A stretch of 64,000 nt of DNA from Octopus vulgaris. Taxonomy: Eukaryota. The notes beneath the pieces are model-generated. The model had not been told where the DNA came from. It saw only the letters and a list, made by a program, of their open reading frames with translations, and ran no database searches. The stretch is from contig OX597817.1 of the NCBI GenBank assembly GCA_951406725.2, positions 109,864,001 to 109,928,000 of the forward strand, read 5' to 3'. The position numbers and the translations under genes were made by a program. How positions within the stretch are numbered: position 1 is the stretch's first letter; every line of letters begins with the position of its first letter. This document shows positions 370 to 31,400 of the stretch, piece after piece.

Positions 370-772
370 CTTTTATGTATTACTTGTTTCAGTCATCAGA
401 CTGCGATCATGCTGGGGCACCACATTGAAGGATTTTAGTCGAACGAATCGACCCCAGTACCATTTTTCTTTAAAACCTAGTACCTATTACATCGGTCTCT
501 TTTGCCGAACCTTTAAGTTACGGGGACGTTATCACACCAACACCGGTTGTCAAGCGGTAATAAGGGACAATCACGGACACAAAAGCACACACACACACAC
601 ACACATATATATATACGATGGGCTTCTTTCTTTTTGCATCTACTAAATCCGCTCACAATGCTTTGGTCGGCCCGATGTTATAGTAAAAGACACTTGTTCA
701 AGGTGCCACGCTGTGGGACTGAAGCCGGAAACGTTGTTGGGAAGCAAACGTCCTACCACACAGCCACACCTG
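370..772 (-). mobile_element. SINE family A (tRNA-derived head, internal (TA)/(TG) microsatellite)
   Basis: Reverse complement carries an A-box/B-box-like head (GGCTGTGTGGTAGGA...GGCTTCAGTCCCACAGCGTGGCACCTTG), body GAAGCCCATCG+(TA)(TG)n and 3' end CAGCATGATCGCAGTC..TGACTGAAACAAGTAA; collinear with more than 10 other copies in the window. Confidence 0.9.
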
Positions 773-3074: not shown

Positions 3075-3420
3075 TCTTTATATTTTACTTGTTTCAGTCA
3101 TTAGACTGCGATCATGCTGGGGTACCACCTTGAAGAATTTTTAGTCAAATGAATCAGCCATAGTACCTAAGCCTGGTACTTATTCTATCGGGCTATTTTA
3201 TCGATCCGCTTAGTTGCGGGGACATAAACATATATTTACACGTGCGCGCCTACATATGCGATGGGCTTCTATCAGTTTTCGTCTATCAAATCCACTCACT
3301 AAGCTTTTGTTGGCCCTAGGCTATAGTAGAAGACACTTGTCCACGGTGACCACGCACGCATCGGGATTGAACCCGGAACCATGTAGTTAGGAAGCAAACT
3401 TCTTACCACATAGCCAATCT
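3075..3420 (-). mobile_element. SINE family A
   Basis: Collinear with family A (TACTTGTTTCAGTCATTAGACTGCG...GAACCCGGAACCATGT...CTTACCACATAGCCA). Confidence 0.88.
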
Positions 3421-4708: not shown

Positions 4709-5030
4709 GTTTCTTTATTAGCCACATAGGGCTGCACACAGACAGGACAAATTACAAGGTAGAGCTTTTCTTTTGGGGGTAAAAAAAGGGGGTTTGGTTT
4801 TCGATCAAAAGGGATCGTAAAAGGGAAGAAAGAGGACAAAAAAGGAGGGTGGATAAACATTTTTTTAAAAAAAGGGGGAAAGGAAAAAAATTGATCAATA
4901 GGGATCGTTATCACAGAAATGTCAATATAAAGTGTAAAGGGGAGGACAGGTGAGGTTTACCCGTGGAAAGAAAAGCCTACGGAAAAGGCCACGGTAACCT
5001 CGGTCAATGAAGTCACATGTTATTTTTTTT
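4709..5030 (-). mobile_element. Tx1/L1-clade LINE 3' UTR fragment inserted in a (GACA)/(GATA)n tract
   Basis: Close match to 10789-11125 (TTTCTTTATT.GC.ACA.AGGGCTGCACACAGA..GGACAAATTACAAGGTAGAGCTTTTC...CACGGTAACCTCGGTCAAT); flanked by GACA/GATA repeats on both sides. Confidence 0.9.
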
Positions 5031-5492: not shown

Positions 5493-5839
5493 TCGACCCC
5501 AGGACTTATTCTTTGTAAGCCTAGTACTTATTCTGTCGGTCTCTTTTGCCGAACCGCTAAGTTACGGGGACGTAAACACACCAACATCAGTCGTCAAGCG
5601 AAGTTGGGGGGGGGAGACAAACACAGACACACAAACACACAAACACACACACAAAATATATATATATATACATATATACGACGGGCTTCTTTCAGTTTCC
5701 GTCTACTAAATCCACTCACAAGGCTTTAGTCAGCCCGAGGCTACAGTAGAAGACACTTGCCCAGGGTGCCACGCAGTGGGACTGAACCCGGAACCAGGTG
5801 GTTGGTAAGCCAGCTACTTACCACATAGCCACTCCTGCG

Positions 5840-10788: not shown

Positions 10789-12129
10789 AGTTTCTTTATT
10801 GGCTACACAGGGCTGCACACAGATGGGACAAATTACAAGGTAGAGCTTTTCTTTTGGGGGATGAAAAAAAAAAGTGGCGTAGGTTTTCGATCAAAATGGA
10901 TTGTGAAAGAGAAAAAGGAAAAAAAGAAAAAAAAGGAAAAGAAACAAATGAAAGAAAAAAGAAAAAAGAAGAAAAAAGAGGAAAAAAGGGGAAGAGGAAA
11001 AAAAACGATCAATAGGGATCGTGTATCACAGTGTCATGAAGTACGGTGTAAAGGGGAAAGCAGATAAGGTTTATCCGTGGGAAGAAAAGCCTACGAAAAA
11101 GACCACGGTAACCTCGGTCAATATTGTTATATGTTACCACATTTGTTTGCAAGTGGGTAACTCTCTGTTTTCAATTTCTGGGTTCATAGGATTATGCTCA
11201 AGGTGACTTCGTCATTCATACGTGCCATCCTTGCTACAATCACCCATCTTTTTTTTAAAACATTCGCTAGACAAAACTTGCCTCTCTAGTCTCACTTTCC
11301 TTTTCAAGTGGTACTTGAAGAAGTTGATGAGAGATTGACCAGAGAGGAAAGTGTTTGTCTCCAATCCTTTCAGACACGTCCACCAGATACATTCTTTCGT
11401 CATAGCCACAAGGATGATGAAAATAGCTCTTCCTTCCCGTTTGAAGGAAGGAGGCGTGACAATATTGACGATAGACTCAGCTGATAAACCGACTCGTCCC
11501 ACACGTGACAGCAGTTGTTCGACATAAGCCCTACAGGTCGGAAATTGTTGGACACTGCACGAGTGCGTGCAGAACGGTTTCGTCGCTCTGACTGCATCTC
11601 GGGCAGGTCGGCCCCGTGTTTCTCGAGCCGTGTCTGTAGAGCTTATCCCGAACGGGTAGCGCTTCTCGGTAGCACTGCCAGGCCAGGGATCTCTGGAAGT
11701 TGTCCATGGACCCTGGCCCGAAAGTCGTCCCGAACAGGCGGGTCAGGTATTCCTCGTCGACGTCCAGGTTCGCACCGAGCTCGTCGTCGTGCCTCCCCTC
11801 CACTAATCCCCTATAGAATGCTTGGGTTGTGATGGAGTCAATCAGGGTCGACCCGGGACGGCAGAGTTGCTTGAGAGCAACGCGACACTCGCGGTGCCAT
11901 TCGCCCTTCCCTGGCATCTTTTTGATCCACGACTGCAGTTTGGTCATGGAGACTAGCTGCGGGAAAGCGCGACTCACAAACGGTGACCACACCTGTTCAC
12001 CGTCGTCTACGAAGAGCCTGAGATGTTGCAGTCTCAGCGCGTGTCTGCGCATCATCAACCACGGCATGCCCAGTCCTCCTTTTAACGGGTTTTGACAGCA
12101 AATGGATCGCCTGACCATCGGGACGCATC
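10789..12129 (-). mobile_element. 5'-truncated Tx1/L1-clade LINE (ORF2 C-terminus + 3' UTR) with 16-bp TSD
   Basis: ORF 11531-12118 has KGGLG and zf-RVT-type AW...LPVRDKL..CPRC...DETVLHALVQCP motifs and continues past a stop into 11212-11502. Perfect TSD CAATAGTATATAGATA at 10773-10788 and 12130-12145. Confidence 0.93.
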
Positions 12130-12138
12130 CAATAGTAT

Positions 12139-15189: not shown

Positions 15190-15850
15190 AGACGCAGGCG
15201 TTTGTGTGGTAAAAAGATTGCCTCAAAATGGTTTTATATGTAGTCAATGTAAGAGGTATATCGCCTCCTTAATGTGTTTTTGTAAGAGGTTTGTTGCCTC
15301 AAAATGTTTTATAAAAGAACAATGTGCTCGGTATACAGAAATCGGCGGGCATTGCTCTTGCCCTCATTTTTCACCATTTCATTTGTCATTCATATCATTA
15401 TGTGTGTCCAGCCCGCAGCTTCCATTCTGTGTAAGGCCCTTGTGGCCAATTAAATGAATAAAAGAAGATTGCTTACCAATCGCATGGTTCTGGGTTCAAT
15501 CCCACTGCGTGGCACCTTGAGCAAGTGTTTTGTACTATAGCTTCGGGCTGACCAAAGCCTTGTGAGTGGATTTGGTTGACGGAAACTGAAAGAAGCCCGT
15601 CGTATATATATATATAGCTGTGTGGGGGTGGGGGTCTTTGAGTCTGTTTTTGCGCCCCACCACCGCTTGACAACCGGTGTTGGTGTGTTTAAGTCTCTGC
15701 AACCTAGTGGTTTGGCAAAAGAAGACCGATAGAATAAGTACCAGGCTTAATACAAAAAATAAGTACGGGGGTTGATTCATTCAGCGAAAAGAAATTGGTC
15801 AAGGCGGTGCCCCAGCATGGCCGCAGTCTAAAACAAATAAAATACAAAGG
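15190..15850 (+). mobile_element. SINE family A interrupted in its tRNA-derived head
   Basis: Head starts GACGCAGGCGTTTGTGTGGTAAAAAGATTGC, resumes after the insertion as AAGAAGATTGCTTACCAATCGCATGGTTCTGGGTTCAATCCC and runs to CCAGCATGGCCGCAGTC. Confidence 0.88.
15222..15461 (+). mobile_element. Tx1-like LINE 3' end inserted in the SINE-A head, 11-bp TSD
   Basis: Ends TCTGTGTAAGGCCCTTGTGGCCAATTAAATGAA, homologous to the Tx1 3' terminus at 10789; TSD AA(A/G)AAGATTGC at 15211-15221 and 15462-15472. Confidence 0.72.
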
Positions 15851-16960
15851 TAAAATTTGGTTTTAGTGCTACGACTTCTAACAAGTTGATCACTTCTGCG
15901 TTGGTCGGTCAATACTGTTAAATATCTTGTCTATGAGCAGGTCCTTTTAACGCTTCTACACCAGGCAGATAATATTATCAAAAATATATATAACAAAAGT
16001 GAATATAACGGTATATGTGTGTTTTAAATGGCTATCACGATTTTACTATGATGTAATTAGTTTACATTCAATATACTGTTTTCGATCACGTCACTTGCCA
16101 AAAAATTTGATTCTATCATTATAAGTGGATTCAATACAAATGAATACATTTTCAAGAATTACTTTCTTATGCAAATCTAAATTGACTTATATTAATAGAG
16201 AAACGTGATAGCCTTTGAGGTTTAAAATTGATAAAGGATAACTGATTTATGTATATTAGAAAACAATATATCATATATTATATACATGTGTGTATGTATT
16301 TGTATGAGCATGACTGTATTTGATGATTGTGCGTGCGTGTGTGTGTGTGTGTGTGTGTTTATGCATGCATGCGCATAAATGAAAAGTTGAATATTTCTTC
16401 CATCAATACAATAGCTATATAATATCAACATAAATTCACGAATTCACAACCGATATTTTCCTTAAACAAAATTTTGTGTATTAAATTACTGGTACATTAA
16501 CAGCGTTCTGTTTCGTTGTTATATAAAGCGCCATAGAACATATCTATAGATTTTCTTCGTCAACAATCTACATTACGATGATTGTAAGCATCACATACAT
16601 ACATACATACATACATACATACATACATACATACATACATACATACATACATACATACATACATACGGACGTATTCGCGCACAGAGAAAGAAGGAACGGT
16701 TGCATATACATATTACAATTTTGTTTTTAGTTCATCAGCAACTGTGTACCTTCCTTAACTATCCACGAACACACTGCCCATAAAGTCACTGATATTAGTA
16801 GCGAAATTAAACTGTACATACGAATTTGCATATTCAACACTTTTTATGCTTGATTCACCTGCAAACTGAAACCCGAAAATACCCTACATAACTTAAAATA
16901 GAGGCAAAAAATAAAGCGTGCAATGCTTTATCCAACAGCGTAGTATAGTGCATATCACCT

Positions 16961-17308
16961 TTTCTACTCTAGGCACAAGGCCCGAAATTTGGGAGGAGGG
17001 GCCAGTCTATTAGATCGACCCCACTATGGAACTGGTACTTAATTTATCGATCCTGAAAAGGATGAAAGGCAAAGACAACCTCGGTGGAATTTGAACTCAG
17101 AACGTAACGGCAGATGAAATACCTATTTCTTTACTACCCACAAGGGGCTAAACACAGAGAGAACAAACAAGGACAGACAAACGGATTAAGTCGATTACAT
17201 TGACCCCAGTGCGTAACTGGTACTTAGTTTATCGATCCTGAAAGGATGAAAGGCAAGGTCCACCTCAGCGGAATTTGAACTCAGAACGTAACGACGTGCT
17301 AACGTTTC
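16961..17308 (-). mobile_element. Composite SINE-B: Tx1-tailed SINE-B unit joined to a normal SINE-B unit
   Basis: Two Deu/Nin-like cores in tandem. The first ends TCTGTGTTTAGCCCCTTGTGGGTAGTAAAGAAAT (17123-17186) instead of the usual GGCCTTGTGCC tail. Outer TSD TGCATATCAYCT at 16949-16960 and 17309-17320. Confidence 0.85.
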
Positions 17309-17746
17309 TGCATATCATCTGTAAGGTCAATGAATTAGCTTCTGCACTGCCGTTTGACTTACTAGAAATAGTAGCTAAAGCTCCCTCAAACCACTCCTTA
17401 GTACCTTAAATCTGAATTCTCCAATTAAAGTTAGAACGTCGTTGATTATATATCGCTAGATCAGGGTTAAAAATAATAACAATTAGAACATCTTGTCTAA
17501 GCTAGAACGAAACCCTTTCGAAGAAACGAATATGAACTAGTAACAGCAAACATTGGAAATTACCAAGTCTTTCATTTTGCCTTCTGGCTACCATTTTAAT
17601 GACACATCTATTATCTGTTCACCAAATTTATTGCAGTAGTTGTCAAAAATATAAATATTTATTAAACACAAACACTTCATTGTTAAACGCTATATTTATG
17701 AGAGAATGTATTTATACGCTTATGTGTGCATTTGTATATGCAAATT

Positions 17747-29188: not shown

Positions 29189-29353
29189 TAGACGTAGAAC
29201 TGGCTGTGTGGTAAGTAGCTTGCTTACCAACCAACATGGTTTCGGGTTCAGTCCCACTGCGTGGCACCTTGGGCAAGTGTCTTCTACTATAGCCTCGGCC
29301 GGACCAGAACCTTGTGAGTGGATTTGGTAGACGGAAACTGAAAGAGGCCAGTA

Positions 29354-29418
<65 letters not shown>

Positions 29419-30936: not shown

Positions 30937-31400
30937 GTTGCTGTGTGGTAAAAAGCTTGATTCCCAACCACATGGTTCTATGGTTCTGGGTTCAGTCCCA
31001 CTGCGTGGCACCTTCGGTAAGTGTCTTCCTCTATAGCCTTGGGGTGACAAAGGCCCTGTGAGTGGATTTGGTAAACGGAAACTGAAAGAAGCACATCGTA
31101 TATATATAAACATATATGTGTGTGTGTGTGTGTGTGTATGTGTGTATTTATATATGTGTGTGTGTATGTATGTATTTATATGTTTGTGTGTGTGTGTGTA
31201 CCCTGCCATCACTTGACAACCGATGCTTGTGTGCTTATGTCTCTCGCAACCTAGCGGCTCGGCAAAAAAAAACGATAGAATAAGTACCAGTCTTACAAAG
31301 AATATGCCCTGGTGTCGATTTCTTCGACTATAACCCTTTAAAGCGGTGCTCCAGCATGGCTGCAGTCGAGTGACTGAAACAATTAAAAGAATAAAAGAAT
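30937..31400 (+). mobile_element. SINE family A
   Basis: GCTGTGTGGTAAAAAGCTTGATTCCCAACC...GGGTTCAGTCCCACTGCGTGGCACC...TGACTGAAACAATTAAAAGAATAAAAGAAT. Confidence 0.92.

What the first reader, a model, noticed from the sequence alone, without database searches (positions are those of the whole stretch)
16949..17320. Tail-swapped SINE: Deu/Nin-type SINE-B carrying a Tx1 3' tail, joined inside another SINE-B head
Seen: on the minus strand a SINE-B core ends not in the normal GGCCTTGTGCC tail but in CCTTGTTTGTTCTCTCTGTGTTTAGCCCCTTGTGGGTAGTAAAGAAAT, which aligns with the Tx1 LINE terminus CCTTGTAATTTGTCCCATCTGTGTGCAGCCCTGTGTAGCCAATAAAGAAAC. It is followed directly by GTATTTCATCTGCCGTTACG, the middle of a second SINE-B head, and the composite has a 12-bp outer TSD. 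Known: SINEs acquire LINE 3' tails to use that LINE's RT. Inference: a SINE-B subfamily has switched partner to a site-specific Tx1 whose target is the SINE-B head itself, a self-targeting loop that would generate SINE dimers or multimers.
Basis: partly seen in the sequence, partly recalled or inferred. Interest (0 to 1): 0.75.

Follow-up and report, generated by a model that had tools for sequence, protein, structure and literature searches.

The report
Octopod SINE that nests in itself
A very abundant short jumping element, in what looks like an octopus-type genome, ends in the tail of Tx1-type retrotransposons and has repeatedly inserted at two exact spots in older copies of itself, likely because bases read past its end pair with the landing site; this would explain its tens of thousands of dimers and short arrays.

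Summary
The tail is Tx1-derived. Real self-insertion exists: 28 of 39 examined head-before-head loci at the core start (J1) and 6 of 16 at a second site (J2) carry an inner duplication, against 0 of 16 at a control position; hosts are older than inserts. Most one-head dimers, like this one, look retroposed whole from many nested sources (young head, old and unrelated 3' units); long arrays also grew by local duplication. A three-base tail variant predicts the first bases of the landing site in unique DNA (p about 3e-6), which points to pairing of read-through RNA with the target. The scan noted this system before elsewhere in this genome, and some notes report such a LINE; I could neither confirm nor exclude it. 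The Nin label is not supported.

The parts
17309..17320 (-). 5' copy of the 12-bp outer target-site duplication (last 3 bases shared with the head)
17295..17311 (-). 5'-truncated tRNA-like head (positions 13-29 of 47), followed by a 31-bp deletion between 4-base microhomologies; promoter of this copy probably dead (inferred)
   Evidence: deletion read by eye
17189..17295 (-). first core (B-box region plus central domain), young T-subfamily type, 91% to the reference module
17124..17188 (-). Tx1-derived 3' tail (T, 65 bp, TAG variant), 97% to the reference module
17004..17123 (-). second core, starting exactly at junction J1; 88% to the reference module, N2-type 3' end
16961..17003 (-). ordinary N2 tail of SINE-B
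16949..16960 (-). 3' copy of the outer duplication (11 of 12 identical)
10790..12135 (-). 5'-truncated Tx1-A LINE (zf-RVT, E 2.7e-07) with the related tail; 5' flank is (TATC)n, not SINE-B
4709..4990 (-). 3' end of a second Tx1-A copy, followed by microsatellite

Best explanation
A young subfamily of a tRNA-derived SINE carries a Tx1-type 3' tail and is likely copied by Tx1-type enzymes that nick loosely defined sites, with the final choice likely set by pairing between the few RNA bases read past the tail and the nicked DNA. Shown: tail homology, tail-ended insertions with duplications of about 16 bp, nested insertion at two head sites (J1, J2), and a link between tail variant and landing-site bases. 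Inferred: a copy that landed at J1 or J2 makes RNA whose 3' extension is SINE-B sequence, so its progeny prefer those words, including J1/J2 of other SINE-B copies; polymerase III reads through (no run of four T in the consensus), reverse transcription can start at any tail, and one-head dimers and multimers are retroposed whole from many nested sources; some arrays then lengthen by local DNA duplication. The window copy is such a retroposed dimer.
For: Tail identity 36/43 to 47/57 with six of seven other LINE-type ends tested and 41/55 with the seventh, all above 1000 shuffles. 36 of 91 tail-ended one-head elements have a duplication starting at the first base after the tail, commonest length 16. 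Inner duplication in 28 of 39 J1 and 6 of 16 J2 loci vs 0 of 16 control loci, p 4e-7; it matches the after-tail copy better than the insert's own copy in 27 vs 4 cases, and host heads are 0.23 vs insert heads 0.08 diverged, n 21. Landing site starts GG after 37 of 59 TAG tails vs 4 of 39 CAA tails, and AG/AA after 2 of 59 vs 26 of 39; 27 of 49 vs 3 of 38 after removing 11 SINE-derived flanks; this mirrors the junction each variant forms in multimers (TAG 96 J1, 0 J2; CAA 3 J1, 6 J2). In 36 multimers ending in N2 the last core is older than the first (0.094 vs 0.064, p 2e-5) and no two last cores are closer than 0.073; heads (0.068 vs 0.115) and outer duplications (25/331 vs 22/196 mismatches) are young. 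Two-unit arrays are as unlike as random pairs (0.115 vs 0.110), while 20 of 38 neighbours in longer arrays fall under the 5th percentile. Precedent for RNA-target pairing: SART1Bm and R1Bm (PMC7265360, passages).
Against: No Tx1 with the exact SINE tail was found, so the mobilising LINE is unidentified. Two partner LINEs with different nicking preferences would give the same variant-target link. Some landing sites of both variants start with TA (10 of 59, 5 of 39), so pairing is not obligatory. Nested share (3 of 115 by eye; about 1,800 J1 events estimated) is above the 0.6-0.9% expected from the five-letter word alone, on small numbers. The old-type base at head position 19 is commoner in simple dimers than in monomers (10 of 21 vs 7 of 41, p 0.016), which fits some in-place head collapse; the duplication-age difference alone is not significant (p 0.16). 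No RNA or enzyme data. Many loci came from the first 3.6 Mb of C1 and were chosen on exact matches.
Confidence: 0.6

Rival explanations
1. A dedicated, SINE-B-head-specific Tx1 exists; its endonuclease recognises J1 (a sister recognises J2), and the SINE is a relaxed passenger.
For: Insertion is base-precise at two sites that share flanking letters. The genome holds Tx1-type families with other fixed targets, including one stacking at one site. Four earlier AI notes on this genome report such a LINE (unchecked). J1 sits at the loop of a predicted 13-bp hairpin.
Against: None of about 170 LINE 3' ends read lay at J1/J2; Tx1-A tail followed by the J1 word gave 2 hits, both in (TATC)n; 20 of 20 candidates were SINE tail mutants. 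Most tail-ended SINE insertions are in unrelated DNA. The survey covers a small, non-random part of 6,856 Tx1-type motifs.
Confidence: 0.25
2. One-head dimers form during reverse transcription by template switching between an old-type SINE-B RNA and a tail-bearing RNA, or by in-place collapse of the two heads after nested insertion, not by read-through of nested loci.
For: Template jumping seems to occur: control loci carry short head-plus-core pieces in front of a full element. Several last cores look chimeric (by eye). Head position 19 excess.
Against: In-place models predict shared first core bases and an old 5' head: core 9-16 is not shared (0.286 vs null 0.289) and head 5-17 is young. RNA-level switching is not excluded by any test here.
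Confidence: 0.12
3. All dimers descend from one or two retroposed master dimers, with arrays made only by unequal crossing-over; no self-targeting.
For: Only two junctions dominate (39,941 and 3,877 exact); near-identical neighbours in long arrays.
Against: De novo nested insertions with private duplications; last units belong to three subfamilies, are older and star-like.
Confidence: 0.03

Closest known systems
SINEU with Tx1-Mar LINEs of crocodilians (Kojima 2015, PMC4494074; parts 1 and 3 of 5 read)
   Same: SINEs attributed to Tx1 machinery, preferential insertion at fixed positions in another repeat, tandem insertion, 5' additions by template jump.
   Different: There the target is a Mariner transposon, heads are snRNA-derived, and LINEs sharing the target were shown. 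Here the target is the SINE's own head, the preference is weak (about 2-3% of insertions) and no LINE sharing it was found.
SART1Bm and R1Bm priming by RNA-target annealing (PMC7265360, passages)
   Same: A few 3' RNA bases matching the target raise accurate initiation; R1Bm needs downstream target sequence.
   Different: Autonomous R1-clade LINEs with sequence-specific endonucleases; not a SINE, and no inheritance of target choice between tail variants described in the passages seen.
SINE-derived satellites and tandem SINEs (Vassetzky et al. 2023, PMC10702118; parts 3 and 4 of 5 read)
   Same: Arrays of a SINE-internal unit with terminal SINE parts, more homogeneous when longer; Dip/B1 multimers and dimeric SINEs are cited.
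   Different: Attributed mainly to DNA-level duplication; here the unit boundary is an insertion junction and dimers appear retroposed.
Microsatellite- and transposon-targeting Tx1 families: Kibi, Koshi, Tx1 in Tx1D (as summarised in PMC4494074)
   Same: The window's Tx1-A is a microsatellite-associated LINE of that habit.
   Different: Repeat unit TATC; clade membership not confirmed by a tree.

Membership tests
tRNA-derived SINE | short, dispersed, high copy, flanked by target duplications | tested here: met
   (22 of 33 monomers with score 9 or more vs 8 of 300 random pairs)
tRNA-derived SINE | tRNA-related head with A and B boxes | tested here: inconclusive
   box-like motifs by eye and paired ends of the first 90 bases, but ARAGORN and Rfam find no tRNA
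tRNA-derived SINE | polymerase III transcription | not testable with these tools
   only the absence of a four-T run in the consensus
Stringent SINE-LINE pair with Tx1 | shared 3' tail | tested here: met
Stringent SINE-LINE pair with Tx1 | one LINE family with the same tail and the same target | tested here: not met
   best ends are about 75-87% identical and have other targets; survey incomplete
Stringent SINE-LINE pair with Tx1 | conserved tail stem-loop | tested here: inconclusive
   z 0.01, 0.92, 0.45 for three tails
Tx1 clade (partner LINEs) | ORF2 with endonuclease, RT and C-terminal zinc domain | tested here: met
   L326 1132 aa: PF03372, PF00078, PF13966; window fragment PF13966
Tx1 clade (partner LINEs) | RT phylogeny with named Tx1 elements | not tested
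Site-specific element by Kojima's criterion | more than 20% of insertions in one repeat | tested here: not met
   3 of 115 full-head elements nested by eye; criterion from PMC4494074
Nin-DC SINEs | Nin central domain | tested here: not met
   no likeness by eye to Lottia_Nin, Lsa_Nin, Nla_Nin in supplement 4 part 3 of PMC4758252; no alignment computed
DeuSINEs | Deu central domain | not tested
   no reference sequence obtained; tRNA-Deu and tRNA-Core are named as main octopus SINE classes in PMC8967140 (passages)

The most novel reading that the evidence does not exclude
The SINE inherits its target preference outside its own sequence: each copy's landing site becomes the 3' guide of its RNA, so tail lineages remember where their ancestor landed. 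One lineage locked onto the SINE's own head, turning hundreds of thousands of old copies into landing pads and into read-through sources, a self-feeding loop that turns a SINE into multimers and satellite seeds, possibly shared with a Tx1 LINE that targets its own passenger.
Probability: 0.4. Interest if true: 0.75.

Novelty: new variant of a known kind. Interest (0 to 1): 0.52.

Why it matters
If right, it gives a natural, countable case of how target specificity of non-LTR retrotransposons can begin without changing the enzyme, through RNA read past the element's end, and a route from a dispersed SINE to tandem repeats. It also extends the short list of SINEs with L1/Tx1-type tails (PMC3747384 passage: 3 SINEs with L1 tails in its survey) and bears on annotating one of the commonest repeats of this genome. 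Each ingredient has precedent, and the scan has noted the system before.

Tried and rejected
Seamless in-place insertion as the main source of dimers: rejected, with one contrary hint. Rolling-circle copying of a circular RNA: rejected for two-unit arrays, whose units are unrelated. Search for a SINE-B-targeting LINE: Tx1-A ends, Tx1-B (75-78), C-terminal motif surveys, short-spacer junctions (92-94, all 20 fetched were SINE), the lineage with the longest tail match: none found; a further planned distance search was not run, so the question stays open. ARAGORN and Rfam: nothing useful. Tail folding: no signal. ESM Atlas gave no answer. RNA: no RNA holder listed; contigs cannot show RNA ends; X11 laid nothing. 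Scripts 27 and 28 timed out; script 106 stopped after the lines cited. Paper searches listed no description of this octopod arrangement; the library lacks most subscription papers, Repbase and Dfam, file 1 of the supplements of PMC4758252 and PMC4824008 could not be searched, and the repeat library behind PMC13282606 was not seen, so the family itself is probably already catalogued.

Full report
1. Observation. The first unit has a 31-bp deletion (by eye). The window holds about a dozen other SINE-B cores, none with T, and two LINE 3' ends with a related tail. Contigs of two public runs bridge J1. A LINE homologue named from Argonauta hians at 60% identity and the repeat content suggest an octopod genome; that is inference.

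2. Family. Exact counts in G000: J1 junction with the TAG tail variant 39,941, tail 86,814, second junction J2 (tail followed by head position 15) 3,877; controls 0. Module parsing of the fetched loci gave three SINE-B subfamilies by tail, with core divergence 0.157 (N1, n 14), 0.121 (N2, n 24) and 0.060 (T, n 42). Of 111 complete T-bearing elements 70 had one tail, 26 two, 8 three, 6 four and 1 five; these loci were partly chosen on junctions, so the shares are not genome-wide. Monomers ending in T have their own duplications (22 of 33 vs 8 of 300 random pairs), so T is a working 3' end.

3. Tail origin. The consensus T aligns with all eight LINE-type ends tested above 1000 shuffles. The LINEs have the EN/RT/zinc architecture; I did not build a tree, so Tx1 is a working name. 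Tx1-A ends (30 + 30 + 2 loci) run into (TATC)n-like or unique DNA. A young family, Tx1-B, stacks head to tail at another fixed site. Of 6,856 C-terminal motifs I read 23, 18 and 35 ends (3 and 5 rows had no readable tail, 7 of 30 loci were not printed) and 2 more. None of these about 170 ends, some counted twice, lay at J1 or J2. No LINE had the exact SINE tail.

4. Self-insertion. Patterns for a host head followed by a new full head gave 162 (J1), 81 (J2) and 50 (control in mid-core) matches. I examined 40, 20 and 20 of them (39, 16, 16 after duplicates). An inner duplication starting right after a tail was found in 28, 6 and 0. Because multimers carry J1 anyway, I also tested private variants: the upstream copy is closer to the after-tail copy than to the insert's own in 27 vs 4 cases, and host heads are older (0.23 vs 0.08). 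Correcting for pattern sensitivity gives roughly 1,800 J1 and 200 J2 events and under about 20 in the control window. Among 115 full-head T elements not chosen for this, 5 abut SINE-like sequence and 3 are nested at J1 by eye. So self-insertion is real and base-precise but rare per insertion.

5. How dimers arise. In 36 multimers ending in N2, the last core is older than the first and the last cores are mutually distant: not one master. First and second cores do not share their first bases; the 5' head and the outer duplication are as young as in T monomers: mostly not formed in place. Against this, head position 19 leans to the old type in simple dimers (p 0.016) and the duplication-age contrast alone has p 0.16. 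Read-through from nested copies is the simplest source: the consensus has no four-T run and inner units lack the A-box part. RNA-level template switching remains possible. Arrays of three or more units often have near-identical neighbours (down to 0.000-0.005) while 5-7% from consensus, showing later local duplication.

6. Target choice. Among 123 tail ends not followed by SINE, position 4 is A in 84% and positions 3 and 5 are mostly T, a loose enzyme-type preference. The first two bases follow the tail variant 12 bases upstream: GG after TAG, AG or AA after CAA, the same letters that follow each variant in multimers. These bases are in both copies of the duplication where one was found, so they were in the target. 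I infer that RNA read past the tail pairs with the nicked strand, as proposed for SART1Bm and R1Bm (PMC7265360, passages). About 11 of 290 occurrences of the J1 five-letter word in 224 kb lie at SINE-B J1 (partly by eye), predicting 0.6-0.9% nesting against 2-3% seen; longer pairing could supply the rest. Two partner enzymes would explain the same link.

7. Known systems. Closest is SINEU with Tx1-Mar (PMC4494074, parts 1 and 3 read); arrays resemble SINE-derived satellites (PMC10702118, parts 3 and 4). PMC13282606 (part 1 and passages) lists active L1-Tx1 and 893 unclassified SINE families but not this structure. Nin does not match by eye; Deu was not tested. Eight paper searches listed no account of it.

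8. Earlier scan notes. Searches show the system noted several times in this genome. Three notes report a LINE that inserts in the SINE carrying its tail; they prompted my survey, which did not find it and does not exclude it. One note left open whether the extra head is avoided or lost; my tests favour a third route, whole retroposition from nested sources.

9. Verdict. Real, large, and a new variant of known behaviour. Best explanation 0.6, dedicated SINE-targeting Tx1 0.25. Interest 0.52.

Noticed in passing
L293-L342 (e.g. L326, G000:C3:34861001-34867000): Young Tx1-type family (copies 97-99% alike, intact 1132-aa ORF2) stacked head to tail with shorter one-ORF elements at one fixed site; two loci (L307, L340, same place) suggest the target is a different SINE.
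   Followed up: partly
L161-L180: Full SINEs preceded by a head plus the first about 68 core bases, ending at a three-T run, sometimes repeated; looks like template jumping onto short transcripts.
   Followed up: partly
L087 + near 3250: SINE with a short 5' inversion, resembling twin priming.
   Followed up: no
L375-L380, L382, L402-L404, L407, L410, L413: Further Tx1-type families ending in (ATC)n or (ATT)n, or sharing other fixed 3' flanks.
   Followed up: no
SINE consensus positions 31-60: Predicted 13-bp hairpin whose loop ends exactly at J1.
   Followed up: no
L083 +, L088 -, L105 -, L153 -: N2-tailed copies also join the head at the J2 position, so J2 attracts more than one subfamily.
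   Followed up: no
run X19 laid on window 16930-17340: The T-tailed SINE is present in another organism's contigs with different tail variants.
   Followed up: no
L271-L272: Truncated Tx1-A copies in tandem at about 4-kb spacing, separated by (TATC)n.
   Followed up: no
window 567-730, 5665-5819, 15462-15630, 29240-29403, 30981-31142: Copies of a second abundant repeat family, probably another SINE.
   Followed up: no
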